A stretch of DNA of 64,000 nucleotides, from the NCBI GenBank assembly GCA_963575745.1, contig CAUYUJ010000002.1, positions 62,001 to 126,000 of the forward strand. Direction: 5' to 3'. Source of the stretch: Prorocentrum cordatum. Its lineage: Eukaryota. Below are positions 6,092 to 64,000 of this stretch, one piece after another; the first letter of the stretch is position 1; the number at the start of each line of letters is the position of its first letter. The position numbers and the translations under genes are program-made. A model generated the notes under the pieces. The model was given only the letters and a program-made list of their open reading frames with translations, made no database searches and was not told where the DNA came from.

Positions 6092-6400
6092 CACGCCGCG
6101 TGCAGGAGGACGCCACAAGCGCCAGCAGCAATCCTCGCCCAAACGGCTGGAGCCCAAACTCTAGTGACATTCAAAAACATGTGCAACAGAGGGTTGCGAA
6201 TTCGAAATGATATGTTGCATTTGCAATGCACAACATTCTTGTAACGCTCGATACAATATTCTGAATGCGTTCGCACGCAAGTCTGGATCATGATTTCCGA
6301 TATGCGTGATCCCGAAAATCCAAACACATGCATGCGTTTCTGGAGGCAACATCCAAGGAAAACCCGATGCAGCAGCTCTGTTTTCAAGTAAGCATGTAAA

Positions 6401-46000: not shown

Positions 46001-46300
46001 TCCGCATGAACGACGGGAGTCTCGTCCTGGGACCGCCCTTTGAAGCTCCGTGGGAACTGTCGACCCTGGGGCAGCTCGGAATGGCCCAGGGACCGCTCTC
46101 GGGAGCTCTGCGGGGGACGGCCTGAGTCTCCTGGCAGGCTCTGGGGCAGCGCGGAGTGGCCTGGGGCCTTCTCCTTGGAGGCCCGGGGCTCGAGGCGCTC
46201 GGGGGTCTCGGGGGCGTTAAGGGGTCCGAGCGACGGCGAGAGGGTGCCGCGGCTCGGGGCACTCTCCTTGGGAGCTCCTTGGGAACCGCCGTTAGGCCTA

Positions 46301-46453
46301 GGCCGGGCATGTCCCTCTGCAGGAGGGAAACTCAAACAATAGTCCAAATGATGTGGGGACGACTTTTTCCCTATTTTGGGATTTGATGTTGGATTGTTTG
46401 GAATGTTTTGTGATTTTCCTCCAACATCCGCATGTAGGAGGACATGCCCGGCC
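46301..46453. mobile_element. TA-flanked MITE (TIR GGCCGGGCATGTCC)
   Basis: TA|GGCCGGGCATGTCC...GGACATGCCCGGCC|TA with an AT-rich interior. Same family as 41770-41914 and 42922-43090. Confidence 0.8.
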
Positions 46454-47244
46454 TAAAACCATCGGTGTCTCGTGGGAGGCTCTGGGGCAATGTGGGAGTG
46501 GTCCTTGGAGGTTCTTGGCCCATTGGGGGCTGCGGGAAGGGCGTCGTCTGGGCTCCCTTCGGCCCCTCTTCGAGCCCTCGTGGGGGTCTCTCTGGAGCAT
46601 CTAAGGGTCCTCTTGGCCCACTTCGGACTTCTTGGGCCGTCTCGGGGGCCTCTTGGGCCGTCCTGGGGCCATGTAGGGGGTCTCGGGCCATCTTGGAGCT
46701 TGCTTTGATGCCTGTGCAGCTTCTAGCGCCCTCTTGGGGCTGTCTTAAGGCCCTCCAGGGGCTCTATGAGGCTGTCTTGGGCTTCTCGTGGGCATTCTTC
46801 GGGCCCTCTGGGGCCGTCTTGGGGCACTCGGCGGGGCCTCCTGAATCGTCTTGTGGCGATCTGGGATGGTCCTGGAGCCGTCTGGAACCGTTTTTGGCCC
46901 GAAATGGCGCGAGCACGGAAAACTCTCAAATACCAAAACAAAAAAAAAGCCTGGCCTCGGGGAACCGTCATCGGGATCCTGTTGGGCCGTCTTGGGAGGC
47001 ATTTGGTCCGTCGTCGGGCCGTCTTGGGCTGGTATAAGGGCTTTGTTCGGGTTCTCTTGGAACGTCCTCCCGCCATCCCGAGCGTCTCGGAGCGGTAGTG
47101 GGGCTGCCTGAGGCCGTCTTGGAGACACCTGGCTGGGGGCTCTCTGGAGCGTCCGAGAGCGGCGGGGCGCTCCCAGGCGCTCGGGGGCATCTCGCGACCT
47201 TCTCCCCTCTTTCGCACGCGCAATGACCAGAATTGCAGTACAGA

Positions 47245-47536
47245 TGACGTTGGGCCCCAGCTTCGCCTTCCGCATCTCGCTGAGCAGCGCCAACGCCCGC
47301 TGCCACTGCTCGCCTTTCCCGCACGCTCTGATTCCAGCGTCGTAGCGCAGATGACGTCGGGCTCCAGCTTCGCCTTCCGCATCTCGCTGAGCAGCGCCAG
47401 GGCTCGCTGTCACTGCTCGCCCTTCTCGCACGCGCTGATCGCTCCAGCTTCGCCTTCCGCATCTCGCTGAGCAGCGCCAATGCCCGCTGTCACTGCTCGC
47501 CTTTCTCGCACGCGCTGATCCAAGCGCTGTAGCTGA
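47245..47536 (-). pseudogene. Three degenerate tandem PPR (pentatricopeptide) repeats
   Basis: SYxAxISACEKGEQ(W/*)QRALALLSEMRKAKLEPDVI three times, with TGA stops, a deletion and a frameshift. Confidence 0.85.
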
Positions 47537-48584
47537 CTTGGGCTGACCCGTGGACTCCGTCCACGAAACCTGCACCAACGGACATGTGGTGATGGACATG
47601 GTGCCGAAAGGCTTCTGTCCCTTCTTGCTGCGTGATCCTGACCTCTCCTCCTCCTCCTCCTCCTCCTCCTCCGCCTCCTCCTCCTCCTCCTCCTGCTCCT
47701 CCTCCTCCTCCTCCTCCTCCTCCTCCTCCTCCTCCTCCTGGGCCTCCTTTCCTCCTCCTCCCCTGGATCCTTCATCCCTTCGACGTTGCGTCGTCAATCG
47801 TCGATCCTACGACGGCGCCCCCGAAAGCACAAGCGTCCAGGGCCCTCCGAGCGTGGAAAACAACTCCTTCGGCCGTGCGATGAGCGTCTCGCCTCTCGTC
47901 CGCTGCCCGTGTCTTGAGAGCAGCTTTGAAGCCTCTTCTGGGGGCCGCCTGGAAGCCGTTCAAGAGCCTCTTGGGAGTCTTTTCGGCCTCTTGGAAGACT
48001 TTGGGGCCGCATTGGGCGCCTCGTGGGCCGTCTTGGGGCTGTCTCGGGTAGCTCTCGGGCCGAATTGGGGCCGCTTTGGGCCGTCTTGGGCCGTTCTTCA
48101 GGCCCCGGGTCCATTTGGGCCGTCTTGGGCACCCTCTGGGCCACCTTGGAGCCGTCCTAGGGCGTCTTGCAGCCTTCTGAGGGGCCTTCGGGGCCGCTTG
48201 GGGCAAGCTTAGAGGGTAGTGGGGCCGTCGTGGGCGGTGTGGAAAGGAGAAACGCGAGAATTATAAAAATGCACGTTTCCCAAATGTGCTGGGACGATTT
48301 GTGCTTCTTGTGGCCCTCTTGAAAGCCTTGGTCGAGGCTTCTAAGGGCCTGGAAGCCACTGAGGCGGCCTTGGGGGCCTCCCGAGCGTCTGAAAGCCGTC
48401 TTGCGGCCGTCTCAGCTTCTTGGAGCCACCGTGAGCCGTTTCGGGGTCCCCCTGCGGCCCTCCGGAAGCGTCCTGAGGCGACCCGGGGGCCGCCCGGAAG
48501 CGCGCCCGAGCTGGCTGGCACGGTTTTGTGCTCTTAGATCCACCGCCCTTCCCGCACGCGGCGCCGCCGGCGTTGTAGCGCAGA

Positions 48585-48689
48585 TGGCGTCGGGCTCCAG
48601 CTTCGCTTCCCGCATCTCGCTCAGCAGCGCCAGAGCCCGCTGCCACTGCTCGCCCTTCTCGCACGCGCTGATCCCAGCATTGTAACTGA
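48585..48689 (-). pseudogene. Single 105-nt PPR repeat between Helitron-like units
   Basis: SYNAGISACEKGEQWQRALALLSEMREAKLEPDAI. Confidence 0.85.
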
Positions 48690-51600
48690 GGACTGACCCG
48701 TGGACTCCGTTCACGACAGTTTTCTGGAATGGTTCTTGGAGGAAAAGCAAAGTGTTTGCTGAGAACCTATAGGCACTACGACGGCCGGGGCGGCGGCAGC
48801 GAGACCGTGCCTTTCTCAGTCAGCTTGGCCCCAGCGCGCGGCTCGTTCGCCCCCCTCGTAGGGGGGGTAGTTTCGAAGTCCCTCGGGGATGTGCGTCGAA
48901 GTCGGAGCCCATAGGAGGCGTCTCAGGAGCGCCCAGGGAAGGTTTCTGGAGGCCCTCGGGGGACGCCACCAGGAGCGTAGGGGGAGGCTCGCAAGGATCC
49001 CCGGGGAGGGTCCAAAAGAGAGCTGCAGGAGGGCCTGCTCCGCGGCTTGACGCAGGATCGGCGACCGGACGGCGCCGCTGTGGGAGCGGCACGGGCACGG
49101 CAGAGCTCCGCTCCCAGCGGCGCCCCAGAGCGGCCCAGAGGGGGCCAACTCGCTGCCACCGCCCTCCCACCCTGCGAGCGCGGGGGGGCGGCACGGTGGT
49201 ATAGACTATAGGGCTGGCCCGTGGACTGGTTCCACTTGCGGGGTGAAGCGTGTGAGGGCCTCTGGGGGTGTCACGGCAACGTGGGGCTCGATCCTCGCAG
49301 TCGGCGCACGCCTCTGCGTGGTGTTGCTTGCTGCCGCTGTTTCATGTTGCTGATCATGCTCGCCGCCGCTGCGTATCGTTGTTGCTTGTGGCTGAAGGGT
49401 GCTGCTGTTGGCCACGCTTGCTTGGTGCGTGCTGCTGACCGCTACATGCTGCTGCTGCTGCCGTTGCTGCTGCTGGTTGCTGTTGCTGTGCGCTGACGCT
49501 ATTGTTGCCTGCTTCGTGTTTCGTGCTGCTGCCTTCGGATCATGGGGGCGTTTGGGGCCACCCCAGGATGATCTTGAGCCACCTTGATGCTGCACTAAGG
49601 CCAAGGCTGGAAATTCAGAAGCAACTGCGGTGGGCCTTAATTTCGAACGATGGTCCATTGTGGCTGTGGCCGCCCGAGGAGTTCGGAGGATGCGCGCGGG
49701 CCGCGTGGGCTGGGGAGAAGACCGTAGGCACTGCGGAGAATGCCCTCAATGGCCAGCCTGTCCGGCCAGAGCACTCTCAGAAAGAGCTCCATGACGAGTC
49801 GCCCATTCAGACCAGAGCAGTTGCAGAGAAGGAGAGAAAAAAAGAGGCGCACGGGCGCCGTCTTCTCCTGGGTGGCCGGCGCGGCCCCAGAGCCTTTGGG
49901 AGACTATCCCTCGGAAGCCCCTTGGAAGTGGTTTTGGGGGTGTCCTGCGGTCTCTCGAAGGCCTCTTGGGGCCTGAATTGGGCCTCTCGGGGGTCCTTCT
50001 GGGGCGTCTGGGGGGGCCGCTTGGGGGCCGGCTGGCGGTTTCGAGGATCATCCTGGAGCGGAGGGCGCGAACTGTCAACTCGAGTTCCCCCTCGTGGGGC
50101 CCTCTTGGGGCCGACTTGGGCCGTCTTGGGGGCCTCTTGGGCCATTTGGGGGCCCTCTTGGGCTGTCGGGGGGGGCCTCTTGGGTCATCTTAGCGCGATC
50201 TTGGGAGCCCTGGGGCTGGCTTGGAGACACCAGAAAGGCGAGAACGCTGAAACTTCTCAGAAAGCCGAAAGAAACCAATGAATTTGGCCTCTTGGGGACC
50301 TCCTTAGGGGCCTCTTTAGGCCTTCTTGAGCCGTCTTCCGGCACTTTGGGGCCTTCTTGGGCGTCTGGGGGGCCTCTTGGTAGGAGGCCAACAAGCATGC
50401 ACCGATACCATTCGCCCCCCCCGCGAGCCCACACAGAAGCTATATGTCCTCATTTGTTAAACGTGCGCAATCGGCGCATGCGCGTGGCCATCCTGTTGCA
50501 CCCTATACAGCATACCCCGCCGAGAAAATGGCCGCGAACACATTCGACGCGATAACTTCCTGTGCCATCTTGGGGACGTCTTGGGGCCCAAACACGGCCC
50601 CAGCGGCCCCCAGGAGCGCCCCGCAAGAGCAACAACAGGCTTCCAAAAGAGGTCCCAATGAACCCCTGTTCCAACTCCACAGCGTGAAATTCGAAACGAT
50701 AACATGTACTGCCACTTTGGGGGCCGTCTGGAGCTTCCAAGACGGCCCCAGAAACCCCCAGGAGCGCCCCAAGAGAGCCATAAGAGGGCTCCAAAAAGGG
50801 CCCCGGTGAGCCCCTGGTTCAACTCCAAGACGTGGATTTCGAAGCGAACACTTTCAGTCCCCTGTGGGCAGCCTCTTGGGCCCCCAAGACGGCCCCAGAG
50901 GTCCCCATGAAAATCCTCCCAAGGCCGCGAGAGGGTTCCGAGAGGGTTCCTTGAATTAGCCCCCCCGGTGATGATCCCATGTGCCCTGCTTCGCTCACGC
51001 ACGACGGGCAGCTTTTGCTGCAAACCCCGCACATGCACAAGGGCACCGCTGTTGCTACAAGTCCGCCTCACGAGCGTTTTTGCTACACTCCCCTCTCATG
51101 TGCAAGGGCTGTGCTCTCGCTTCAGCGCCCTCCACAAGGGACATGATTGTGACAATCGCCCCATGCGCACAAGGCAATGTTGTTAAAACTCCCCTCATAG
51201 ACAAGGGAATCGCTGCTGCTGTAATCCCGCCCGACGTTCGGAGAGCTGTTGTTGCTATCCTCCTCATGCACGAGTGTCGGCTTTTGTTTTTCAATGTCGA
51301 ACGCCATGCGTGAAGAGACGTCCGTCCTTAATGCAATCCCACCCATGTGAAAAAACAATTTGGTTACACTCGACCTCGTGACAGAGAGAGCTAATTCATG
51401 ACGCCACCGGGTTGGGAGTGCCGCTCCTGGTGCTCCTTCTGCGTGGCTGCCTGCGCGCTCGCTTCGCTTGCCCCTCTCTTTTCTTGCTGCCTAGTCGCGG
51501 CCCGGCTAGTGATCGGACGGCTTTCGACTTGCTTCGCGAGCCCGCAGACCAAAAAAAACCCACCACCCCCTCCAGAGACGATGCCCAGGCGAGTTGCCTC

Positions 51601-53191
51601 TCAGAGTCTCCTCGGATGTCTCTTGCACATTTTTTGGAGACCTACTGAAGCGTCTTGGGGGCCTCTTGGCGGTCCCGGGGGCCTCGTGGAGCGTCTCGGG
51701 TGCCCCGGGGAGCCTCTTGGGGCCTCTTCGGGATCTCTTGGGAGCCTCTTGAAGCATGTTGGGCGCCTCTTGGGGCCTACTGGGCGCCTCTTGGGGCCAT
51801 CTTGATTTGCTCTTGGGAGCGCTCTTGGGGCCATCTTTGAGGAGATCAATCAAAGAAGGGGGTGGCTTCAATTACGCCCCCCCCCCCTCGGGAGCCCCAC
51901 TAATCGCCTCTTGGACCCTTCTTGGAGCGCTCTTGGGGCGCTCTTGGGCGCTCTTGGGGCCGTCTTGGGGCTCTCTTGGGGACTTCAGGGGCCCTCTTGG
52001 AGCTGTCTTGAGGGCTCGGAAGGCCATCGGAAGCGAAAAGGCGAGAAGGCAAACATCATTGATTTGCCTTAGGTTGTTGGAAGATGTGGCCTCCTGGGGA
52101 AGCTCCGTGGCCACTCTGAGCCGTCTTGGAACTGTTTTGGGGCCTCTTGGAGCATCTTGAAAGCCATATTGAGCCATCTTGGGCGATCTTCAATCAAGAG
52201 AGGCCCAACAGGAGTCAGCACGAGAGGCCCAAGATGAGTCAAGACGAAATGAAAGGAGTGAAAGGAGAGCCCTCCCGCATGACTTCATCTTGTCTCCACT
52301 TGAGCCGCTCCTGGGTCCTCCCAGGGTTCCGCTCAAGATCTTCGGAAGGCTCAGGTATAGCACCAAGACGGCTCGAGAACCCTAAGATGACCCCTCCCAG
52401 ATGCTCCCAGGAGGCCTTTCGAAGCGCAGCGCCAGGAACATCAAGAAAAAAACCTTCCTGACGCTCGGGGGGCCCCTTTCCAAGTCCGCCTCCCCTCCTT
52501 TTCCCACTCTGGCCCCTTGTGGTCCACGTATGGCTTCCTCCTCCATTCCCTCGACCCGCTCCTGTTTCTTTGTTCGTTCCGTTGACCTGGCGCCAACCAT
52601 CAATGGATCGAAACGTGAACAACTATTTTTCTAAACCCACGAGTTTGATGGCGGTGTATGCTTGTTGGCCTCTGACTTAGGGGCCATCTGGCGGTTTCGG
52701 GGGTCATCCTGGAGCGGAGGGCGCAGACTGTCAGTTCGAGTTCCCTCTCTTGTGGGGCCCTCTTGGGGCCGTCTTGAGGGCCTCTTGGGCCGTCTTGGAA
52801 CCCTCTTGGGCTGTCTGGGAGCTCTCTTGGGGGCCCCTTGGGTCATCTTGGCCCGATCTTGGGAGCCCCGGGGCCGGCGTGGAGCGTGGAGACACCGAAA
52901 AGACGAGAACGCTGAAACTCTTCAAAAACCCAAGGGGAACTCAATCATTTTGGCCTCTCGTGGGGCCCTTCTTGGAAGCCTCTTGGAGCCCTCTTGAGCC
53001 GTCTTCTGGCACTGTGGGGCCGTCTGAAAACCAGATTGGCGACCTCTTGGACCGTCTTGGGGGCGTCTCGGGCCATCTTGGGCCGTCTTGGGGCCCTCAG
53101 TGGCCGTCCTGGATTCCTCCAGGGCCGGCTGGGGCCGGGTTTGGGTCATCGGATCCCCCGCCCTTCTCGCACGCGCGAGTCCTGGCATAGA

Positions 53192-53296
53192 TAACGTTGG
53201 GCCCCAGCTTCGCCTCCCGCATCTCGCTGAGCAGCGCCAGGGCCGGCTGCCACTGCTCGCCCTTCTCGCACGCGCTGATCCCCGCGCTGTAGCTGA
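53192..53296 (-). pseudogene. Single 105-nt PPR repeat between Helitron-like units
   Basis: SYSAGISACEKGEQWQPALALLSEMREAKLGPNVI. Confidence 0.85.
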
Positions 53297-56200
53297 CCAG
53301 GGCAGACCCGTGGACTACGTCCACAGCATGCGGCCCGATCTGGTCACAGTTCCCCTGGCGGCCACGAAAGCTTACTCGCATGCAAGGGTGAGGTTCGATG
53401 TATGTGCGACTTCTGGTCTGCAATGCTGCCAGCGACGCTGCTGGCCGGGTGGCCCACAGCTCGACGGCCCGATCGCCTAATGTCTTTGCTGCCTGCGTCA
53501 TGGCTTGCTCGTCCGCTCGCTGCCGCTCGCTGCCGCTTGCTGCTTGGGGCCGCCTTGAGGTCGTCTTATAAGGGAGCGCTGCGTGACCAAACCCCTCCCA
53601 CCCTCCCCTCAGGGCTGCCCGCTTTTATTACTCGCCCGAAGTCGACGCACGTACCTCTGGCAACCTCTGGCCGTCCAGGCATTTACAATTATTTTTCTGA
53701 GCTGCGTGGTGGGCCGTCTTCGAGGCGCGCCGGGCCACTCCGAGGCCGCGAGGGGCCCTGCGGGTGCGGAAGGTGCCAGGGGCCAGGAGAAAGGGAGCGA
53801 GGAGGAGCGAGGGGAGATGAGCAGGGAGAGAGGAGCGTTGAGCAGTGGGCGAGGGAGCGAGAAGAGGGGGTCCCAGAGCGACAAGCACACGAATCTCCCA
53901 GTGGACTCGACGCGCGCGGGGCCAAGCATTCAGACACCTGGCCTCCTCTTGGGTCGCTTGCTCGCCCTCCTCGCACGCGCTGCTCCCAGCACTGTGGCTG
54001 ACCAGGGCGAACCCGTGGACTTCGCCCACGACCTTCAGGTCCCCCTGGTGCGCCTCCACGGCGCGGCTCCGTGCCATGCGCGCATGCCTTCGCGCTCTCG
54101 CGCCCGCACCCACGGAGAAGAGCAGCGCTCCAAGTGCGGCGAAGATCCGTGGGCGGGGTACGCACGGAAAGCTGTAGTGAGTTCTTCCCAGCTGCCTGGG
54201 TGAAGCGTGACGGCGGGCGCCCGCACCCACGGAGAAGGGCAACGGTCCAGATGCGGCCACGAAGCGTGTCCGGGGTACGGCTCGCAGGCTCTGGAAACTT
54301 GTTTGTCCTGCAGAAACCGGAAGGCGGGCGCTGCCTTCTCCTAGGGATAGCTTGGGAGCTTCTCGGAGCTTCTTTCGGCCTCCTGGACGCTCTCGAGGTC
54401 GTCGGCCGTCTATGGAGTTTGGAGCTTTTCGGCTTCTGCGGCCGTCTAAAGATCGTCTTGGCGCCGTCTTGGGCCGTCTTGGGCAGCTCTTGAGGCTGTC
54501 TTGGATGCCTCGTGGGCTGTCATGAGCGCCTCAGGAGCCGTCCGGATGCTGTGTTGGGCTGCCTTGGGGCCCTCATGCGGCTGTCCTGGGAGATCTTGAA
54601 ACACTCTTGGGAGCCTGTATGGCCGTCGTGGTAACGTCGGATACGAAAAGCACGGGAATTACAAACATGTTTCCTTGTTCGGGCCCTCTCGGGGCCCTTC
54701 TCGGTGCCCCGTCGGGACGTTCTGGAGGCGTCTGAAGCCGTGTACAAGGAATCTTGGGCGCCTTGGAGTCTCTCTTGGACGGTCTTAGGCCCCAAAACGC
54801 TCTTTGGCCATCTTCGAAGCGCACCAGGGCCTGCCGCCCGCTCTTGGGAGCCTTGGTGAGAAGAGCTTTGTACTTCACCTATCGCTCTTTTAATGGGCGT
54901 CTCTGGTGGTCCTTGTGGGTTTTTTTTTCTGGCCATTCTGAAGCTTTTTTGAGCTGCTCTGGGAGCGTTTTGGGACGGGGCCATTTGGGGCCGTCACGGG
55001 GCGTCCGGGAGGCCTTGGACCGTCTTGGAGCTCTCTTGAGGCTGCCTGAGGCCGTCTTGGGAGCCTCTTGGGGCCCCCTCGGAGTTCTCTTGGGGCCGTC
55101 TTGGGGTTCTGTGAGGCCGTCTCAAGGATCTCTGGCGTCGTCTTGGGGCTCTTGTGGGCCGCCTTGGAGACCTCTTAGGGGCCGCTGGCGTCTTCTTGGG
55201 GCGATTTGGGAGGCCTCTTGGCGTGTCCTGGGGCGCTGAGGGGCGCACAAGGCGGGCATGCTAAAAATATGCGTTTCGTGTAAAAACAATGACGATGTGT
55301 GCCTCTTTGGCGTGCGCTCGGGGCCCTCTTGGGGCGTCTTTGCAGCCTCTTGGATCGTCGTGGAGCCCCGCCGGGAAGGCTTCGGGCCCTCGTGGGCCGT
55401 CTCGGGACCGACTAAGGCCGTCTTGGAGCGCTCTTGGACGGTCTGGGAACCCCTCTGGAGCGCCTCTGGGACTGGCCTGAGCGATTCGGCCCTGTGGTGG
55501 CGCTCTAAAGGGGCGATTTTGTCCACTTGAGGCCCTGGGCTTCTCGCACGCGCTTCCACCAGCCATGTAGGAGAGACTAGGGCGAACCCGTGGACTACGT
55601 CCACTTGCGGTGAAGCGTGTGGTGGCCTCTGGGGGAGTCATTAAAACGTGGGCTCGACCTTCGCAGTCGGCGCGTGCCTCTGCGTGTTGCTTGCTGCCGC
55701 TGTTGCATGTTGTTGGTAATGCTCACCGCTGCTGCGTGTCGCTGTTGCTTGTGGCTGAATGGTGCTGCTGATGGCCACGTTTGCTTGGTGCGTGCTGCTG
55801 ACCGCTACTACCTGCTGATGCTACTGCTGTTGCCGCTGCTGTTTGCTGTTGCTGTACGCTGACGGCATTGTTGCCTGCTTCGTATTTCGTGCCGCTGCCT
55901 TCGGGTGACATGGGGCATTTTGGGCAACCCCAGGATGATCTTGAGCCACCTTTGACCTGTGTTTGGGCCAAGGCTGGAAATTAAGAAGCAATTGCGGTGG
56001 GCCTTAATTTCGAACGACATTCCATGTTGGCTGTGGCCGCCCGAGGAGGTCGGAGGATGCGCGCGGGCTGCGCGGACTTGGGAGAAGATCGAAGGCACTG
56101 CGGAGTGTGTCCCCGCTGGCCAGCCTGTCCGGAGCACTCTCAGAAAGAACTCCCGGACGAGTCGCCCATTCAGTCTGGAGCCTTTGCAAAGGAGAAAAGG

Positions 56201-56623
56201 ACATGAGAGGTGCATGGGCGCCATATTTTTCTGGGGGGCCGGCGCGGTCCCAGAGCTCTCTGGGAGACCTTCCCTCGGAAGCCTCCAGGGAACGGTTTTG
56301 AGTGTGTCTTGCAGCCTCTCAAGGGTCTCTTGGAACCCTAGATGGGGGCCTTCTCAGGGGCCTCTTGGGGGCCAGCTGGCGGTTTCGGGGATCATCCCTG
56401 AGCGGAGGGCGCGGACTGTCAGTTCGAGTTCCCCCTCGTGGGGCCCTCTTGGGGCCGTCTTGGGCAGTCTTGGGGGCCTCTTGGGTCATCTTAATTGGCG
56501 CGAACTTGGGAGCCCCAGGGCCAGCTTGGAGCGTGGAGCCCCCTGGGGCCGGCAGGGGCCGGTTTTGTGTCATTGGATCCCCCGCCCTTCTCGCACGCGC
56601 GAGCCCTGGCGTTGTAGTACAGA

Positions 56624-56728
56624 TGACGTTTGGCGCCAGCTTCGCCTCCCGCATCTCGCTGAGCAGCGCCAGGGCCCGCTGCCACTGCTCGCACTTCTCG
56701 CACGCGCTGATCCCAGCGTTGTAGGAGA
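56624..56728 (-). pseudogene. Single 105-nt PPR repeat between Helitron-like units
   Basis: SYNAGISACEKCEQWQRALALLSEMREAKLAPNVI. Confidence 0.85.
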
Positions 56729-58015
56729 CTAGGGCTGACCCGCGGACTCCGTCCACGACATCTTTCTGTAATGGTTCTCGGGGGAACGGAGGAGATATTG
56801 CCGAAACCTATGAGCACAGCGACGGCCAGAGCGGCGGCAGCGAGACCGCGCCTTCGTGTCCGAGCTCTTGCGGCGCTCCGGCAGCTTGGCCCTGGCACAC
56901 AGCTCGTTCGCCCCCCTCCTATTGAGGGCAATTTTGAAGTCTCTCGGGGAGATGCGTCAAAGTCGAAGCCAATCTGAAGCGTCTCAGGAACGCCTGGGGA
57001 AGGGCTCTAGAGGCCCTCGGGGAAAGCTCCTGGGAGCGCCGGGGAGGCTCGCAAGGATCTCCAGGGAGGACCCAAGAGAGTTTCAAGAGGGTGTGACATT
57101 CAATAAGATCTTAACAGAAACCGCTGTTGGGTCAGACATGCTGCGCTCCGTATGCAGCCACGAGCCGGGGGAGGGGTCTGCGGGTTGGTCTGGGGCCGCC
57201 TTGCTCGTCGTGAAGACCACTTGCAACGTTTTGGAAGCCTCTTGGGTTTGAGGCATTGCCGGGGCCGCCTGAGGGTTGTCTAGGGCCGACTTGGGCGTCT
57301 CTGGGGCAGTCTGGGCACCGTCTGGGGGTCGTCTTGGGCCGTCCTGGGTAGCTCTTAAAGGCCTGTCTTGGGTGCCCTGTGGGCCGCCAGGGGCGCCTCG
57401 GGAGCCGTCCTGGGGCCATCTTGGGACCCTGTATGGCCGTCTTCGACGCTATGAGGAGGGCAAGCCCAGGAACTGCCAAAATGCACGTTTTACCAAGGGA
57501 ATGGGATGATTAGTCGGTGTTCGGGCTCTCTTGGGGCTCGTCGTGGAGCCTACTTGCAGCGTTTTGGAAGCCTCTTGGTTCGTCTGGAGGACGTCTGAGG
57601 CGTTGTCGGGGCCGTCTGGGGGTTGGCCTGGGGCTGTCTTGGGCGTCTCTGGAGCAGTCTGGGGATCGTCTGGGGGTCGTCTTGGGCCGTCCTGGGCCGC
57701 TCTTCAGGGCTGTCTTGGGTGCCCCGTGGGCCGCCAAGGGCGCCTCGGTCTGGAGCCGTCCTGGGGCCATCTTGGGACCCTGTATGGCCGTCTTGGACGC
57801 AATGAAGCAGAGCTCACTCGGGGCGTTTTGGAAGACTCTTGGACCGTCTTCGGCCGTCTGGGGGCCCTCTTGGGGGCCTCCTCGTGCGTCTGGGAACGCT
57901 CTTGGGCCATCTTGGAAGCGCGCCGAGGCCTGCTGGGGCTCGCAGGGGCCGCCGGAAAGGGCCGGTCCGCTGCCACCGATCGGGAGCTCCGCGAGCGCCG
58001 CCATTGTACGAGAGA

Positions 58016-58120
58016 TAACGACGGGACCCAGCTTCGCCTTCCGTATCTCGCTGAGCAGTGCCAGTGCCCGCTGCCACTGCTCTCCCTTCTCGCACGCGCT
58101 GATACCAGCGCTGTAGCTGA
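58016..58120 (-). pseudogene. Single 105-nt PPR repeat between Helitron-like units
   Basis: SYSAGISACEKGEQWQRALALLSEIRKAKLGPVVI. Confidence 0.85.
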
Positions 58121-59288
58121 CTAGTGTGAAACCGTGGATTAAATCCACGGCGTGCTGAGCCTGGGGCTCGCACACCGTATGTGACCAGCTCGTCGAAGTT
58201 GAACAGCTCCGGCGTCCCTGGGGCGGCAGGGGCGACCTTCGGAGGCACATGTGAACGTCACGTTTGAGGGCACTGTTTGGGGGCTGTGTTTGTGGGCCAC
58301 GTTTGGGGGCGCCTGGGGGCTACGCGTGGGAGTGACGCTCGGGGGCCACGCTTACTGGGGCGATAGGGGCGACCTTCGGAGGCTTTGTGGGGGCCGCCTT
58401 TGGGGGTTCCGTTTGGGGGCCTCGTGCGGGGCCGACGTTTAAGGGGCCACGTCTGGGGGCCACCCTGGAAAGCAGTCGGGGAGCTCCGGGGGCACTGACC
58501 TGGAAGCGTTGAAAGTATTGGGTTTTGCTGATCGCGCCGGGCCTGGGCGCGATTAGCACAAACATAAGGGTTTTCAGGCTCAGTCGGAGTGAGGGGGCCA
58601 CGTTTACGGGCCTCGGTTGGGGGCCGCGCAGGGAGGTCTTGGGGTCATTTGAGGGTCTCGGGCCGTCTCGGAGGTCGCTTTGTGTCCTCTTGTGCGGCAT
58701 CTTGGGCCCTTCTTGGGGCGTTTTGGGGCCATCTTGGGGGCCTCGGGCCGTTTCGGAAGTCGCTTTGGGCCCGCTCGGGCGGGGTCTGGGGCCCAGTTGG
58801 GGCTGACTTGGGAGTCACTTGAAACTCTCTTGGGCCGTCGTGGGGCCCTACTGTCTGCGGGCCTTCTTGGGCTGTCTGGGGGTCCTCCTGGGGCCCTCTT
58901 GGACCGTGCAGGGGCGATGTAGGAAGCCTCCAAGGCCATCCTGGGCCGTTGCGGGCCCGAAATGGAGGGAACAGGAAACCCCTCGAAACCTTCGGGAAAC
59001 GCACAAGTTTTGCCCCTTGGCGCCGTCCAGGCGGTTCTCGGGGGCCGCCTTTTTTGGGCCGTCAGGGGGCTCCGGTCGGGTCGGCTTCGGCCCTTGTGGG
59101 CGTCTGTGAGGCCGTCTTGGAGCGATCTGGGGGTCCTGGAGCCGTCGGCGAGCGCTCCAGGGGCCTCCTGGGGCCGTGGAGGAGCGCCCCAGAGGCTCTC
59201 CGGGCGGCCCGCGGGCTCTCTGGGCGGCCCGGGGCGCTGCCGCAGATTTTCCTTTTCGCAGGCGCCGCGGCCACAATGGTAGTACAGA

Positions 59289-59395
59289 TGACGTTGGGCT
59301 CCAGCTTTGCCTCCCGCATCTCGCTGAGCACCGCCAGTGCCCGCTGCCACTGCTCGCCCTTCTCGCACGCGCTGATCCCAGCGTTGTAGGAGAGA
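59289..59395 (-). pseudogene. Single PPR repeat (107 nt, extra TC) between Helitron-like units
   Basis: SYNAGISACEKGEQWQRALAVLSEMREAKLEPNVI. Confidence 0.85.
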
Positions 59396-61212
59396 CTAGG
59401 GCTGACCCGCGGCCTTCTGGCCGCGGAATCTGCCCGCCATGGCGTGAACGTGGACGTGGAGCGTCTCTGGGGCCTCGCAGGCGAGGGGAGGTTGGAGGGG
59501 CCCCCGGACGGCGTGGATGGAGGTGGCCGCTGGAGAGGGAGGTGGGCGAGGGATGCAGGCAAGCAGGCCTGAAGGAAGGAACGCGATGGTAGAGGCGGTG
59601 TCAGCGGAAGCACACCCATGCAGGTATGACATGATGTGGACAGAAGCTGCTTCTCACGCCACAATATGTGTTCATCATAGCTTCTGCGGGGAGGGTAGCC
59701 GTGATAATTGTATCTGCTCCTCGCCGGGGCCGAATGATAATTTTATCTGGTTGTGTGGTGACAATGGGGGCGGTGGGCGCGGCCTAAGAAGCCCGCAAGA
59801 GGGCGGCGAGACGGCCCAAAAGTTCTCCAGGACTGGCCACGAAGCTTCTTAAACGGCCCCTGAGGGCCCCTCGAACTCCCTAAGTCGGACCCACACGAAT
59901 CGGCATTTCGAGCGCACCGCCCCAAGACGGAAGACGTCCCCAAAAGGCGCAGAGATGGCTCCCATAGGGTCCAAGAAGCCCCTCAGACGACGCTGGAAGT
60001 TCGACGCTCCGCAAGAGAGAAGGATCCAAGGCCTCTTGGGGGCCGTTTAGGGGCCTCTTTTCGTCCTCCTAGGGGTCTCTCGGGGCCCTCTTGGGCCGTC
60101 TTGAGTGCCTCGTGGGTTGTCTTTGGGCGATGTGGGGCCGTCTCGGGCGCCTCTCGGACCATCTTGAGGCCGTCTTGGGACCATCTTGGGCCGATCTTGG
60201 GCGCTCTTGGGGCTGTCTTGGATGTTTCTTGGGCTGTCTCGGGCGCTTCTGGAGCCGTCCCGTGGCCGTCTCAGGCCGTGTTGGGTGGGGCGATCTGGAT
60301 CCCTGTACAGTCGTCTGGGAGACTGTGCAGATGGAAAGGCTTGGAGACGGGGCAGTGGAGGCCTGCACAGCCGTCTTGGAGACGGGGCGCTGGGGCCGTC
60401 CAGGGCTAGTATGAACTGCTCTTGGAGCTGTCTTGCGTGCGTCTTGTGCCGTCTGTGGGGCTTTTTGGGGGCCCTCCTGAGGGCCTCTGAGTGCGAAGCT
60501 GTCTTGGATGCGGTTTGGGCCGTCTCGGGTGCCTCTGGAGCCGTTCCGGGGCCGTGTGGGGCGATATAATGAAAATGTGCGTTTCCCGTCGGGAATGGGA
60601 CGAATTTGGCATCTTGGGGCTCTCCTGAAGGCCCTCCTGGGCCATCTTGGGAGCCTCCTGACTTGCCTTGGGAGCCCCTGGCGCAGTCTTGGAGCTCCTT
60701 AGGGTGCTCTGAGGCCGTCTTGGCGCCCCCTGGAGCCTCTCGGAGCCGTCCCGTGGGCTATTATGAACTGCTCTTGGGGCTGTCTTGTGTGCGTCTTGGG
60801 CCGTCTGGGGCGCCTCTGGAGCCGTCCCGGGGCCGCCTCGGGCCGTTTGGGGGCCCTCCTGGGGTGCTCTGGGGGTGTCTTGGGGCGAGCCGGGGGCCTG
60901 TAAACCCAACTTGGGCACGGTGAAAACGAAAAGAGCAAGCATACCAAAAATGTACGTTTCAATTTTTGCCTCTTGGGTCCCTCCTGGGGGTCCTCCCGGG
61001 CCGCCTTGGGAGCCTTCTGGCCTGCCTTGGAGGCCTCTGGGGCCGACCTGGGGCTCGGTTGGGTCCCTCTTGGTCTGTCTGGGCGCCCTCGTGGGCGTCT
61101 CTGAGCCGTCTCGGAGCGGCCCGGGGGCTCACAGGGCGGCCCGGGGGTCCCGGCCAGTCTTTCGGGACAGAGGGCCTCCTGGCACGCAAAGATTGCTGCA
61201 TTGTAGAAGAGA

Positions 61213-61317
61213 TGACGTCGGGACCCAGTTTCGCCCCCCGCATCTCGTTGAGCAGCGCCAGTGCCCGCTGCCACTGCTCGCCCTTCTCGCACGCGCTGAT
61301 CCCAGCGTTGTAGGAGA
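61213..61317 (-). pseudogene. Single 105-nt PPR repeat between Helitron-like units
   Basis: SYNAGISACEKGEQWQRALALLNEMRGAKLGPDVI. Confidence 0.85.
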
Positions 61318-62511
61318 CTAGGGCAGACCTGTGGACTCCGTCCACGACATCAGCTCGACGAAGCGAGGGGTCTCTGACCACGATGGCCAGTTGAAGGCGC
61401 TCTCCACACCCTCCAGGACCTCCTGCTCTCCTGTGTTCCTCAGCTGCTGCTGCTGCTCGGAGGTCCTGCTGCTTCCTCCCCCTCCTCCTCCTCCTCCTCC
61501 TCCGCCTCCTCCTCCTCCTCCTCCTCCTCTTCCACCTTCTTCTCCTCTTTCGCTGGATTCTCCATGCCCTCGGTCGGCAATCGTCGATCCTACGACGACT
61601 CTCCCCAACAGAGAAACATCGAAGGCCCTCGGAGCGTCCAACATTGTTCTTTTGTGCCTTCGATATGCCGGTCGCCTCTCGTCCGCTCCCCCCCTCCTGG
61701 AAGCAATTCTGAGGCCACGTAGGGCTTGGTGGGAGCTGTTTGGGGATCTCTTGGGGCGTTTTTGCATGCGACATGCCTGTCGCCTCTCGTCCGCTCCCCT
61801 GCTCCTGGAGGGAATTCTGAAGCCACTGAAGGCTTCGTGGGGGCCGTTTTGGAGCCTCTTCGGCCTTCTTTTGGACCTCCCGGGGGGGCTCTTAGGGCCC
61901 TCTCGGGCCGTCTTGGGTGCCTCTTGGGCCGTCTTGGGGCCGTCTGAGACCCGCCTCGGCGCCTCTTGGGCTGTCTTGGGCCGTCTTGGGCCGCTCCTGG
62001 GGCCGTCTTGGGTGCCTCTTGGGCCGTCTTGGGCGCCTCCTGGGCCGTCCTGGGGCCGTCCTGGGGCGTCTTGGGACCGTCTGGGGGCCCTCCTGGCCCG
62101 TCTTGGGGCTCTCTTGGGGTCCTCTTCGGCCGTCTTGGAGCGGTCGGGGGGACTTCTTGGGCCGTCTTGGAGCGTCGGGAAGCCGAAGAGGCGAGGAGGC
62201 CGAAAACATCGAAAAACACAATAGAAATCGACGATTTCTGTCGCTCGGGGCCCTCTTGGGAGGCCTCTTGGGAGGCCTCTTCGGGCGTCTTGGACGCCTC
62301 TTGGGCCGCCTGGGGCGAATCTCGGGCGTCTTGGGCCCATCTTTAAGCGTGCCGGGGCTCTCCGGGGCCGTCTTGGGGGCTTCTGGGGGCCCTCCCGACA
62401 TGTCCTGGAGCCTGCCTGGGCGGCCCGGGGCGGGGGCCAGCCCGGGGCGGTTTTGGTGCATTGGGGCCTGCGCCATTCTGGCACGCACTGGGCCCTGCAA
62501 TGTAGTAGAGA
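61318..62511 (-). mobile_element. Complete 1194-nt non-autonomous Helitron-like unit, near-identical to its neighbour over about 850 nt
   Basis: Same TCTCTACTAC start and same hairpin plus CTAG end. It is followed by a 105-nt PPR unit. Confidence 0.82.
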
Positions 62512-63476
62512 CTAGGGCAGACCTGTGGACTCCGTCCACGACATCAGCTCGACGTGGCGAGGGGTCTCTGGGCAAGCGCGGGGGGGTGCGGCTGCAGGGC
62601 CGAAAGGCAATCATGATGCCTTCGATATGCCGGTCGCCTCTCGTCCGCTCCCCCCCTCCTGGAAGCAATTCTGAACCACTTAGGGCTTCGTGGGGGCCGT
62701 TTGGAGATCTCTTGGGGCGTTTTTGCCTGCGATATGCCTGTCGCCTCTCGTCCGCTCCCCCGCTCCTGGAGGGAATTCTGAAGCCACTGAAGGCTTCGTG
62801 GGGGCCGTTTCGGAGCCTCTTCGGCCTTCTTTTGGGCCTCCCGGGGGGGCTCTTAGGGCCCTCTCGGGCCGTCTTGGGTGCCTCTTGGGCCGTCTTGGGG
62901 CCGTCTGAGGCCCGCCTCGGCGCCTCTTGGGCTGTCTTGGGCCGTCTTGGGCCGCTCCTGGGGCCGTCTTGGGTGCCTCTTGGGCCGTCTTGGGCGCCTC
63001 CTGGGCCGTCCTGGGGCCGTGCTGGTGCGTCTTGGGACCGTCTTGGGGCCCTCCTGGCCCGTCTTGGGGCTCTCTTGGGGTCCTCTTCGGCCGTCTTGGA
63101 GCGGTCGGGGGGACTTCTTGGGCCGTCTTGGAGCGTCGGGAAGCCGAAGAGGCGAGGAGGCCGAAAACATCGAAAAACACAACAGAAATCGACGATTTCT
63201 GTCGCTCGGGGCCCTCTTGGGAGGCCTCTTGGGAGGCCTCTTCGGGCGTCTTGGACGCCTCTTGGGCCGTCTGGGGCGAATCTCGGGCGTCTTGGGCCCA
63301 TCTTTAAGCGTGCCGGGGCTCTCCGGGGCCGTCTTGGGGGCTTCGGGGGGCCCTCTCGACATGTCCTGGAGCCTGCCTGGGCGGCCTGGGGCGGCCCGGG
63401 GCCAGCCCGGGGCGGTTTCGGTGCATTGGGGCCTGCGCCCTTCTGGCACGCACTGGGCCCTGCAATGTAGTAGAGA
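62512..63476 (-). mobile_element. Complete 965-nt non-autonomous Helitron-like unit
   Basis: Starts TCTCTACTACATTGC at 63476 and ends GTGGAC-GGA-GTCCAC-AGGTCTGCC-CTAG at 62512. Confidence 0.82.
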
Positions 63477-64000
63477 CTAGGGCTGACCCGTGGACTCCGT
63501 CCACGACATCTTTCTGGAATGGTTCTCGGAGGAACGGCGCAGATTGTATCGAAAATCTACAAACACGGCGGCGGCTCGGGCGGCGGCAGCGAGACCGCGC
63601 CTTCGTGTCCGAGCTCTTGCAGCGCTGCAGCAGCTTGGCCCAGCGCACTGCTCGTTCACCCCCCTCCTATTGAGGACAGTTTCGAAGTCTCTCGGGGATG
63701 TGCGTCGAAGTCGAAGCCCATCTGAGGCGTCTCAGGAGCGCTCGGGGAAGGGCTCGCCATCGGGGAAAGCCACCGAAAGCGCCGGGGAGGCTCGCAAGGA
63801 TCTACAGGGAGGGCCCAAGAGAGCTTCAAGAAAATTTGAAATACAGTGAACTCTTAAGAGAAACCGCTGTTGGGTCGGCCATCACCTCCGGGCGCGCCTT
63901 GATGGTGCGATCCAGTCGCATCACCGCCAACGGGAGGGTTTGTTCGCCATGTCCCATTCTGTTCGCCCAGAGGGTCAGTGGAGGCCTTCGGGCGAACAGA

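What the first reader, a model, noticed from the sequence alone, without database searches (positions are those of the whole stretch)
47245..63510. Candidate PPR-targeting Helitron system: rolling-circle-type elements at one fixed A|T site of a pentatricopeptide repeat
Seen in sequence (minus strand): units of about 1-1.8 kb end in a hairpin, 7-9 nt and CTRG. They are followed by exactly one PPR repeat starting TC(AG/TC)CTAC. Five such repeats are 105 nt (48585, 53192, 56624, 58016, 61213) and one is 107 nt (59289). The next unit starts with TC right after the A of ...P-D/N-V-I (GTCA|TC or GTTA|TC). Removing the units rebuilds an in-frame PPR array (...PDV I SYN...). Established: Helitrons have 5'-TC, a 3' hairpin plus CTRR, and insert between A and T without a TSD, and they are not generally known to target a protein-coding repeat. 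Inference: either a sequence-specific Helitron family colonised each repeat of a PPR gene, or the PPR unit is amplified as part of the element. Either would inflate apparent PPR gene counts in this genome.
Basis: partly seen in the sequence, partly recalled or inferred. Interest (0 to 1): 0.9.

Follow-up and report, generated by a model that had tools for sequence, protein, structure and literature searches.

The report
Helitron-like introns between PPR repeats
In the dinoflagellate Prorocentrum cordatum, repeat elements whose ends look like those of rolling-circle transposons sit at one fixed point between the repeats of a PPR gene and are annotated as its introns, which hints at how mobile DNA can settle inside a coding repeat.

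Summary
On the minus strand of 47.2-63.5 kb, 12 units end in a 6-bp hairpin, 9 nt and CTAG or a variant. Each is followed by TC and the start of a PPR repeat. A 13th copy lies at 25.16 kb. Six ends are followed by one PPR unit (five of 105 nt, one of 107 nt), five directly by the next unit, and one by a broken 2.7-repeat array.

Every unit starts with TC in a conserved left end. That left end resembles a PPR repeat start with 2 extra bases. The hairpin is kept by compensatory changes.

The window is Prorocentrum cordatum. Splicing six window exons reproduces a public 169-aa gene model exactly. Its five GT/GC-AG introns are these units, minus their first 3-6 bases.

Proteins from other contigs show the same right end, then 1-5 PPR repeats, then the same left end. 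Identical element ends occur next to different flanks.

My best reading (about 0.5) is a non-autonomous, Helitron-like, intron-forming element family aimed at the PPR repeat boundary. No RepHel gene, insertion polymorphism or RNA evidence could be obtained. The main rival is one old intron spread by duplication or recombination among PPR repeats. This locus itself is decayed.

The parts
63477..63507 (-). 3' end (hairpin GTGGAC-GGA-GTCCAC, 9 nt, CTAG) of unit E0, whose start lies beyond the window
62512..63476 (-). unit E1 (965 nt): TC... left end directly after E0's CTAG; ends hairpin-CTAG
   Evidence: 96.8% identical to E2 over 895 nt
61318..62511 (-). unit E2 (1194 nt), starts directly after E1; its 3' part with (GAG)n is like that of E11
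61213..61317 (-). PPR unit, 105 nt (SYNAGISACEKGEQWQRALALLNEMRGAKLGPDVI)
   Evidence: PF13041 E 3e-4, below cut-off
59396..61212 (-). unit E3 (1817 nt); variant hairpin GCGGCC/GGCCGC with two compensated pairs
59289..59395 (-). PPR unit, 107 nt (2 extra bases at its start); holds exon 1 of the public gene model (59319-59286)
58121..59288 (-). unit E4 (1168 nt); variant hairpin GTGGAT/ATCCAC; bases 59285-58121 are annotated intron 1 (GT..AG)
58016..58120 (-). PPR unit, 105 nt; within exon 2 (58120-58010)
56729..58015 (-). unit E5 (1287 nt); bases 58009-56729 are annotated intron 2 (GT..AG)
56624..56728 (-). PPR unit, 105 nt; within exon 3 (56728-56621)
55577..56623 (-). unit E6 (1047 nt), same type as the 3' part of E9
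54002..55576 (-). unit E7 (1575 nt), starts directly after E6; ends CTGG
53297..54001 (-). unit E8 (705 nt); its start is a PPR start without the 2 extra bases, cut off near position 47; ends CTGG. E6-E8 plus TCAG make up annotated intron 3 (56620-53293)
53192..53296 (-). PPR unit, 105 nt; read out of frame as exon 4 (53292-53187) in the gene model
49206..53191 (-). unit E9 (3986 nt): E6-like with about 3 kb of extra inner DNA, including an inverted piece near 50.6-50.9 kb; ends CTATAG
48690..49205 (-). unit E10 (516 nt); 3' end lacks CTAG. E9 (minus TCTAT), E10 and TCAG make up annotated intron 4 (53186-48686, GC..AG)
48585..48689 (-). PPR unit, 105 nt; holds most of exon 5 (48685-48582), which runs 3 bases past the unit into the left end of E11
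47537..48584 (-). unit E11 (1048 nt); ends CCAAG; bases 48581-47537 are annotated intron 5 (GC..AG)
47245..47536 (-). broken 2.7-repeat PPR array with in-frame TGA stops and one unit carrying the 2 extra bases; exon 6 (47536-47492) ends at the first TGA
46470..47244 (-). unit E12: left end and inner repeats, no 3' end found
25100..25196 (-). lone junction of a 3' end (last base 25162) with a left end (first base 25161), no PPR unit beside it, bounded by (GAG)n runs

Best explanation
The spacers are copies of a non-autonomous element family in Prorocentrum cordatum whose ends are those of a canonical Helitron. The left end starts with TC. The right end has a conserved 6-8 bp hairpin, 9 nt and CTAG, and is followed by T. 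The elements sit at one point of the PPR repeat, between the A of ...GTCA and the TC that opens the next repeat. They are used as introns in the public annotation.

Proposed mechanism (inferred). A RepHel transposase supplied from elsewhere nicks 5' of the TC of the left end, peels off one strand, and stops at the hairpin-CTAG. It then joins the strand into a site that it cuts the same way, namely 5' of TC(N3-5)TACAAYGC. That motif opens every PPR repeat and also every element, because the first 40 or so bases of the element resemble a PPR repeat start with 2 extra bases. This would explain three things: one site and one orientation, pile-ups in which elements lie head to tail either with no PPR unit between them or with 1-5 units between them, and the absence of terminal inverted repeats.

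Once inserted, the element can be spliced out with its own signals. The donor lies after its first 3 or 6 bases (TCT|GT, TCT|GC, TCTCTC|GT) and the acceptor is its last two bases (CTAG|). This keeps the reading frame and adds one or two residues, giving ...PNVI-F-SYN....

Shown: the anatomy, the conserved ends, the hairpin covariation, the fixed site, the spread to other loci, and the annotated intron use. Inferred: rolling-circle movement, target mimicry, and actual splicing. This particular locus is decayed: it has stop codons, ends without AG, and donors out of frame.
For: Thirteen right ends lie in 64 kb, all on one strand and all followed by TC. Hairpin: 96% of cells are paired, against 19-41% when the partner is slid. 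Three of 6 pairs show a change on both sides, and 0 of 500 shuffles reach the covariation score. The variant hairpins fold at -12.2 and -8.4 kcal/mol, z -4.2 and -5.7.

The left ends of all 12 units align from the TC onward. Eleven of 13 left ends are PPR-start-like at z >= 3.3. The 70 nt before the right end are not PPR-like, z -1.9 to 0.9. The 2 extra bases occur in 11 of 12 left ends but in only 1 of 7 PPR starts that follow a right end. So the left end belongs with the inner part of the element.

The inner motif CCAAGACGGCC occurs 37 times on the minus strand and 2 on the plus; 36 of the 37 lie in 44-64 kb. None of the 25 longest inverted pairs joins a left end to a right end.

The same right end meets different neighbours. 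E6 and E9 agree at 81 of 97 bases in their last 100 nt, and only 16 of 27 alignable bases after the end. The 34 residues encoded by E1's right end are identical in the window, in P0034 and in the P. cordatum model P0135. The sequence that follows differs: a left end in the window and two different PPR units elsewhere.

The unbiased metagenome scan gave 1 contig. There the right end is followed by 3 contiguous uninterrupted 105-nt repeats, that is, empty boundaries. Of 32 single-ORF contig proteins that carry the right-end peptide, 12 show one repeat and then a left-end-like tail, and 5 show two. One (P0083) shows five by eye.

The six units have mean dN 0.085 and dS 0.275, and their variable columns fall 5/8/15 by codon position. 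This fits old coding repeats rather than neutral copies.

Splicing the window exons gives P0101 at 169 of 169 residues, with introns GT, GT, GT, GC, GC..AG that coincide with the elements. The predicted 'IFS' junction is the second commonest in 188 proteins (20, against 117 for 'IS'). 'IFSY' was found in 0 of 39 unspliced contig ORFs examined.

Passages found by term search in the supplementary files of the P. cordatum genome paper report helitron repeats as 1.2% of the assembly, the largest share among the genomes compared, and name PPR genes among those carrying introner elements (PMC10666404).
Against: No Rep or helicase domain, nor any other transposon protein domain, was found in the 66 window ORFs scanned. 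No genome was available in which to look for an autonomous partner.

No orthologous filled-versus-empty pair was seen. The 'empty sites' are other boundaries of a repeat, not the same locus.

The base before the TC is G, not A, in 5 of the 11 complete units. TC stands on both sides of every element, so a 2-bp target duplication cannot be excluded.

Everything within the window could also come from local segmental duplication. E1 and E2 are 96.8% identical tandem copies. The PPR units flanking E6 and E9 differ at 9 of 102 bases, no more than the elements themselves differ.

In 13 of 13 window copies and in the one metagenome copy, the neighbours are PPR units or other family members. The element was never seen with an unrelated flank, which an old intron spread by recombination would also predict.

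The acceptors are followed by T. A preprint on other dinoflagellates reports G plus A, C or T after the 3' splice site as highly conserved (10.1101/2020.10.14.339549, passages).

The gene model is poor: it starts at an internal Met, has one frameshifted exon and ends at a premature stop. It may be an ab initio product.

The protein evidence was collected with a query that itself contains the right end and a PPR unit, so it cannot measure a preference for PPR.
Confidence: 0.5

Rival explanations
1. One old spliceosomal intron at the PPR repeat boundary, spread without any transposase. It would have arisen once, for example by insertion of foreign DNA into a repeat whose first 40 bases became the intron's 5' part. 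It was then copied with its flanking repeats by tandem or segmental duplication, unequal crossing-over and gene conversion among the very similar PPR repeats. The TC, the CTAG and the hairpin would be kept for splicing, or by descent, and only look like Helitron ends.
For: The elements are annotated introns with GT/GC..AG ends. Every neighbour seen is a PPR unit or another family member. The intron's 5' part is a degraded PPR start. PPR repeats are about 85-92% identical in DNA, so homology arms exist on both sides. Local duplication is evident: E1/E2 are 96.8% identical, and larger blocks are repeated. A crossover between the PPR-like left end and a true repeat start would delete or add whole repeats, giving 0 to 5 repeats between ends.
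Against: The full set of Helitron end features together would be a coincidence. The hairpin is kept by compensatory changes 9 nt before the end, with no known splicing role. Identical right ends lie beside different flanks on different contigs: 34 of 34 residues match, against 84% identity or no relation downstream. Inner sequences are mosaics that share only their ends. A lone right-end/left-end junction lies 22 kb away with no PPR unit.
Confidence: 0.27
2. The PPR unit is cargo. The mobile or amplified unit would be right end + PPR repeat(s) + left end as one block, or an element that captured 1.4 PPR repeats. The array would then be a tandem pile of such blocks and not a former PPR gene.
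For: The right end and the first 40 PPR-like bases always occur together, in 13 of 13 window copies and in L001. All units lie head to tail on one strand. The locus has stop codons and no clear gene start.
Against: The number of repeats between a right end and a left end varies from 0 to 5. The six units differ mainly at third codon positions, dN/dS about 0.3. Serine is encoded by TCC in some units and by AGC in others at the same position. Both point to descent from a selected coding array. L001 shows a right end in front of an ordinary uninterrupted array.
Confidence: 0.1
3. Intron spread through RNA. The excised intron (GT...CTAG) reverse-splices into the same boundary of other PPR transcripts. 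The product is reverse-transcribed and recombined into the genome.
For: This would give one site, one orientation, no target duplication and in-frame results.
Against: It does not explain the conserved TC...PPR-like left end lying outside the annotated donor (the first 3-6 bases stay in the exon). It does not explain head-to-tail junctions without an exon, or the lone junction at 25.16 kb. No reverse transcriptase signal was seen here.
Confidence: 0.06

Closest known systems
Non-autonomous canonical Helitrons (rolling-circle transposons of eukaryotes)
   Same: A 5' TC, a 3' CTRR (here mostly CTAG), a short hairpin about 10 nt before the 3' end, T after the end, A before the start where the neighbour is host sequence, no terminal inverted repeats, conserved ends with mosaic interiors, and head-to-tail arrays.
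   Different: The insertion point is one position of a protein-coding repeat, not a general AT dinucleotide. The left end mimics the target sequence for about 40 nt. The elements are used as introns. No RepHel partner is known for them. Five of 11 starts follow G.
Introner-like elements of dinoflagellates (Roy et al. preprint 10.1101/2020.10.14.339549, passages read) and the 'introner elements' counted in P. cordatum (PMC10666404, passages and supplement passages)
   Same: Families of transposon-like sequences that make up introns in dinoflagellate genes. A splice site is carried at the very end of the element. The P. cordatum supplement names PPR genes among the carriers.
   Different: Those elements have inverted repeats at both ends and short target duplications (4 nt GHNN or 8 nt). 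One copy of the duplication supplies the donor, and GH follows the acceptor. Here there are no terminal inverted repeats, the exon after the acceptor starts with TC, both splice sites lie within the element, and the site is one fixed sequence.
Helitron-derived introners in fungi (Gozashti et al. 2025, PMC12130899, passages read)
   Same: A Helitron-type element family that forms introns without a target duplication.
   Different: That family was classified partly by homology to known Helitrons, and the paper says it inserts between TT and TC. No targeting of a protein repeat is reported in the passages read. It is a fungus, not a dinoflagellate.
Target-specific HUH transposons of bacteria (IS91 and IS200/IS605 families) and eukaryotic elements aimed at multicopy genes (R1/R2 in rDNA); recalled, not tested here
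   Same: The idea that the enzyme's cleavage site at the element's end is also its target, and that a conserved multicopy sequence offers a safe landing site.
   Different: Different hosts and enzymes. This is an analogy for the mechanism only.

Membership tests
Helitron (canonical, non-autonomous) | 5' terminus TC | tested here: met
   All 12 units, and the lone copy at 25161, start with TC, and the left ends align from that base.
Helitron (canonical, non-autonomous) | 3' terminus CTRR | tested here: met
   CTAG in 7 and CTGG in 2 of the 12 array copies; 3 are degenerate. L001 has CTAG, and the lone copy at 25162 ends CCTAG.
Helitron (canonical, non-autonomous) | Hairpin a few to about 12 nt before the 3' end | tested here: met
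   A 6-bp stem (up to 8 bp) lies 9 nt before CTAG. 96% of cells are paired, and 3 of 6 pairs have compensatory changes.
Helitron (canonical, non-autonomous) | Insertion between A and T without target duplication | tested here: inconclusive
   T follows all 13 ends. A precedes 6 of the 11 complete units and G precedes 5. TC stands on both sides, so a 2-bp duplication cannot be excluded.
Helitron (canonical, non-autonomous) | An autonomous RepHel element (HUH Rep plus Pif1-like helicase) with the same ends | not testable with these tools
   No genome is held. No such domain was found in the 66 window ORFs scanned. Supplement passages report 1.2% helitron repeats in the species but give no ends.
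Helitron (canonical, non-autonomous) | Evidence of movement: the same element in unrelated places, or filled and empty alleles | tested here: inconclusive
   Identical right ends lie next to different flanks, and uninterrupted boundaries occur in other arrays. No orthologous empty site and no non-family flank was seen.
Introner (intron-forming transposon) | Copies coincide with introns, with their ends at or near the splice sites | tested here: met
   Five introns of the public model P0101 coincide with the elements. The model is rebuilt 169/169 from the window.
Introner (intron-forming transposon) | Splicing shown by RNA | not testable with these tools
   No RNA run holds the stretch. How the gene model was supported is unknown.
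Dinoflagellate introner-like elements of the described classes | Terminal inverted repeats, and a 4-8 nt target duplication that supplies the donor (GH..), with GH after the acceptor | tested here: not met
   No inverted repeat joins left and right ends among the 25 longest pairs. The exon after the acceptor starts TC or TT, and the donors lie inside the element. The definition is from passages of 10.1101/2020.10.14.339549.
PPR (pentatricopeptide) repeat | 35-residue helical repeat matching the Pfam PPR models | tested here: met
   The period is 105 nt. Single repeats hit PF13041 at E 2.3e-5 and 3.1e-4, below the whole-protein cut-off as expected for one repeat. Close homologues carry PF13041 and PF01535 and are named PPR proteins.

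The most novel reading that the evidence does not exclude
A rolling-circle (Helitron) family has evolved sequence-specific integration into a protein-coding repeat. Its left end copies the start of the PPR repeat, so the transposase cuts donor and target at the same motif. The element brings its own donor and uses its terminal CTAG as acceptor. Each insertion then costs the host protein only one extra residue. This would let it colonise PPR arrays across the P. cordatum genome as a self-splicing-out parasite, and it would seed many short PPR gene models.
Probability: 0.35. Interest if true: 0.85.

Novelty: new variant of a known kind. Interest (0 to 1): 0.62.

Why it matters
If the reading holds, this is a transposon family that has solved the problem of living inside coding sequence in two ways at once. 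It picks one harmless point of a modular repeat, and it leaves by splicing in frame.

That bears on where new introns come from. It also bears on how HUH/rolling-circle enzymes can gain target specificity, here by the target mimicking the element's own end.

It would also help explain why dinoflagellate genomes list so many PPR genes. The gene model at this locus is a 169-aa product of a decayed array, and many short P. cordatum models look alike. PPR counts and intron statistics for this species should be read with that in mind.

The family gives a concrete test case: one motif, one site, and a public genome with RNA and proteome data.

Tried and rejected

Sequencing runs: no RNA holder was listed. 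Four DNA or unknown runs with small shares were laid. They gave only short contigs, mostly 150-400 nt. Some were identical to the window. The listed joints lay in low-complexity repeats, and none bridged an element. Nothing could be drawn from this on empty sites or expression.

Right-end pattern scans found 1 metagenome contig, 0 in prokaryote genomes and 0 in viral contigs.

Rfam gave no family at gathering score in the window. I tested whether the right end is a degraded PPR repeat end and rejected this: z -1.9 to 0.9. Terminal inverted repeats: none.

I considered a model in which the element inserts at PPR position 42 with a 42-bp duplication. I rejected it because the upstream copy nearly always carries the 2 extra bases, which the downstream copy lacks.

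Alternative splice pairs were tried by eye: a donor at GAC|GTCA, and an acceptor at CACAG|GTCT. None kept the PPR frame.

Literature searches: Helitron with dinoflagellate, Helitron with pentatricopeptide, Prorocentrum cordatum with introner, pentatricopeptide with dinoflagellate and transposable element, introner with pentatricopeptide, and Prorocentrum with Helitron. I read the listings, and for a few papers also term-search passages. None of these described this family. That is no proof that it is not in print.

Full report
What is there. The window is GC-rich, at 53-69% per 2 kb. On the minus strand between 47.2 and 63.5 kb it holds a head-to-tail series of units. The pattern for the hairpin plus GG gives 17 matches against 0.66 expected by chance. 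Ten are minus-strand sites and seven are the palindrome read on the other strand. Two more ends have variant hairpins. A covariance model of the 38-nt end, built from these same copies and run without filters, recovers 13 copies in the 64 kb. All are on the minus strand at E <= 7e-9, and nothing else scores above 14.9 bits. The thirteenth copy lies at 25162, 22 kb from the array.

The right end reads (GTC)GTGGAC-NNN-GTCCAC-GGGTCAGCC-CTAG. The last four bases are CTAG in 7 array copies, CTGG in 2, and degenerate in 3. All 13 are followed by TC.

What follows each end. Six ends are followed by one PPR unit: 61317-61213, 58120-58016, 56728-56624, 53296-53192 and 48689-48585 (105 nt each) and 59395-59289 (107 nt). 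Five are followed at once by the next unit. One is followed by a broken 2.7-repeat array with in-frame stops (47536-47245).

The units between ends measure 516 to 3986 nt. If every TC...CTRG unit is cut out, five repeats fall into one open frame. Six do so if the 2 extra bases of the 107-nt unit are dropped.

Anatomy of the units. All 12 units begin with TC, and their first 45 or so bases align. The consensus is TCTCTACTACAATGC..GCGCGTGCGAGAAGGGCG, with weaker likeness for another 60 nt. This left end resembles the start of a PPR repeat: z >= 3.3 in 11 of 13. It has 2 extra bases near its start in 11 of 12 units. Of the 7 true repeat starts that follow a right end, only 1 has them.

By contrast, the 70 nt before the right end are not PPR-like, with z from -1.9 to 0.9. 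The interiors are mosaics. Three types of 3' part recur (63882/57139/49030; 61691/47908; 56489/50145). E1 and E2 are 96.8% identical. The short motif CCAAGACGGCC is nearly confined to the minus strand of 44-64 kb: 37 on minus against 2 on plus, and 36 of the 37 in that stretch. None of the 25 longest inverted pairs joins a left end to a right end.

The hairpin is conserved as a structure. 96% of cells pair, against 19-41% when the partner is slid. Three of six pairs carry changes on both sides, at 59396 and 58121. None of 500 shuffles reaches the covariation score. As single-stranded DNA the two variants fold at z -4.2 and -5.7. No Rfam family and no transposon protein domain (66 ORFs) is present.

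Whose genome, and what the public annotation says. Protein searches with the translated right end plus PPR unit return mostly Prorocentrum cordatum gene models and metagenome ORFs. One model, P0101 (169 aa), shares many 14-mers with the window. Splicing the window segments 59319-59286, 58120-58010, 56728-56621, 53292-53187, 48685-48582 and 47536-47492 reproduces it residue for residue, 169 of 169. The window is therefore P. cordatum.

The published annotation treats the units as introns: 59285-58121, 58009-56729 and 56620-53293 (GT..AG), and 53186-48686 and 48581-47537 (GC..AG). The acceptor is the AG of the element's final CTAG where that exists. The donor lies 3, 6 or 5 bases inside the element (TCT|GT, TCTCTC|GT, TCTAT|GC, TCT|GC).

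Where the CTAG is lost (E8 ends CTGG, E10 has no CTAG), the model takes the AG of the following TCAG. Exon 4 is then read out of frame. The model starts at an internal Met and ends at a premature TGA. It is a poor model of a decayed locus, and I could not learn whether RNA supports it. The genome paper's methods, read as passages, combine transcript-based and ab initio predictors.

The same design elsewhere. Splicing at TCT|GT...CTAG| predicts one extra Phe between repeats (..VI-F-SY..). In the 188 proteins then held, 'IS' is the junction 117 times and 'IFS' 20 times, the second commonest. A 36-residue spacing occurs 22 times against 126 of 35, and 14 of those 22 read IFSY or IFSH. 'IFSY' was found in none of the 39 single-ORF contig proteins examined. 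So it comes from predicted splicing, not from contiguous DNA.

Thirty-two single-ORF proteins from metagenome or EukProt contigs carry the right-end peptide (..VDGVHGSALV and variants) directly before a PPR unit. Twelve then show one repeat and a left-end-like tail, and five show two. One (P0083) shows five by eye. The rest are cut off or unclear. This set was collected with a query that contains the junction, so it shows spread, not preference.

The only flank-blind sample outside the window is the metagenome scan with the right-end pattern. It gave one contig, L001. There a spacer of the same kind ends in the same hairpin-CTAG and is followed by three uninterrupted 105-nt repeats.

Identical ends with different neighbours also occur. 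The 34 residues encoded by E1's right end are the same in the window, in P0034 and in P0135, a model on another contig. They are followed respectively by a left end and by two PPR units that are 84% identical to each other. E6 and E9 agree at 81 of 97 bases in their last 100 nt and then stop being alignable, at 16 of 27. The left-end type STTLQGPVRA follows a right end in the window (E1, E2) but a PPR end in P0030.

Best explanation. The ends match the definition of a canonical Helitron on three counts: TC, CTRR, and a subterminal hairpin. The fourth is inconclusive: insertion between A and T without a duplication. The fifth could not be tested: a RepHel partner. I take the units to be non-autonomous Helitron-like elements that land 5' of the motif TC(N3-5)TACAAYGC. 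That motif opens each PPR repeat and each element. I also take them to be tolerated because they carry a donor and end in an acceptor.

This accounts for the fixed site and strand, the head-to-tail junctions between unlike elements, the variable number of repeats between ends, and the mosaic interiors. It also accounts for the signs that the PPR units descend from a selected array: dN 0.085, dS 0.275, third positions most variable, and serine as TCC or AGC at the same place.

Passages found by term search in the supplementary files of the genome paper say helitron repeats make up 1.2% of the P. cordatum assembly, the most among the genomes compared. They also name PPR genes among those with introner elements. 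A RepHel is reported from another dinoflagellate (PMC8788227, one passage). I put this reading at about 0.5. Rolling-circle movement, target mimicry and real splicing are all inferences.

Rivals. (1) One old intron spread with its flanking repeats by duplication, unequal crossing-over and gene conversion (0.27). Everything inside the window can be explained this way, and the elements were never seen with flanks outside the family. Against it stand the full set of Helitron end features, the covarying hairpin, identical ends beside unlike flanks, and the lone junction at 25.16 kb. (2) The PPR unit is cargo of the element (0.10). The variable repeat number, the coding-type divergence and L001 speak against this. 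(3) Spread by reverse splicing and cDNA recombination (0.06). This does not explain conserved bases outside the donor, or junctions with no exon.

A caution applies to the intron reading. The acceptors are followed by T, whereas passages of a preprint on Symbiodinium and Polarella describe G plus A, C or T there as highly conserved.

Comparison with what is known. Intron-forming transposons are well described in dinoflagellates, but with inverted repeats and 4-8 nt target duplications that supply the donor. That definition was tested here and not met. Helitron-derived introners have been reported from a fungus (PMC12130899, passages). A Helitron-like, intron-forming family tied to one position of a protein repeat did not appear in six literature searches. 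I therefore rate it a new variant of a known kind. A genome-wide flank table, a RepHel with these ends, strain polymorphisms and junction reads are all still needed.

The locus itself is a ruin. In-frame donors exist only in E4, E5, E6, E11 and E12. Two right ends lack an AG, and the last array has stop codons. The finding's value lies in the family, not in this gene.

Noticed in passing
window 25100-25196 (-): A lone junction of a right end (hairpin with one mismatch, CCTAG) and a left end (TCTCTTTTTTACAC..GCGTGCGAGAAGG). No PPR unit lies beside it. Both elements are cut short by (GAG)n runs within about 180 nt. It is on the same strand as the array 22 kb away.
   Followed up: partly
window 24770-24860 (-): About 300 nt downstream of that junction, a short open stretch reads ..ALQHRHIVRLLATFEDENYVY. 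To my eye it looks like part of a protein kinase exon. The ORF holding it had no Pfam hit, so this is recalled likeness only.
   Followed up: no
window 4394-6160 (-): A 589-aa open frame lies in a lower-GC stretch. It has 1124 representative homologues (500 at E <= 1e-10) but no Pfam family, also none in 7 homologues, and no PDB sequence match. The AlphaFold model has mean pLDDT 87. Foldseek finds nothing at E <= 0.001. VIA-align gives only weak rows: ParB/sulfiredoxin-like for about residues 58-290 (Z 5.4-6.4) and a small Tudor/SH3-like barrel for 505-567 (Z up to 6.8). It is a conserved family of unknown function.
   Followed up: partly
window 46296-46454 (-): A perfect 15-nt inverted repeat (AGGCCGGGCATGTCC / GGACATGCCCGGCCT) encloses about 130 nt of AT-richer DNA just beyond unit E12. 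It looks like a miniature inverted-repeat element.
   Followed up: no
window 47640-47750, 61463-61547, 23900-24150, 24870-24990, 25340-25400, 43800-43940 and elsewhere: Long (GAG)n/(GGA)n runs lie on both strands throughout the window. One lies 90-150 nt before the right end in units E2 and E11 and before the lone copy, so it is part of one element type. These runs also create many long spurious ORFs.
   Followed up: no
proteins P0069, P0072, P0074, P0105, P0071 (P. cordatum gene models): Many public P. cordatum PPR models read PPR units in all three frames, giving runs such as QLQRWDQRVREGRAVAAG and SATALGSARARRASSGSG. Some read through element ends. P0071 also holds a large non-PPR insert. 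PPR counts for this genome are likely inflated by such loci.
   Followed up: partly
proteins P0058, P0066, P0229 (EukProt records labelled Pyramimonas sp.): Records filed under a green alga carry P. cordatum-like right-end peptide, PPR units and left-end tails. This could be cross-contamination of that data set or a shared element.
   Followed up: no
window 50560-50930 within unit E9: A piece with the inner CCAAGACGGCC-type repeats lies in the opposite orientation inside the 4-kb unit E9. It gives most of the long inverted pairs of the region.
   Followed up: no
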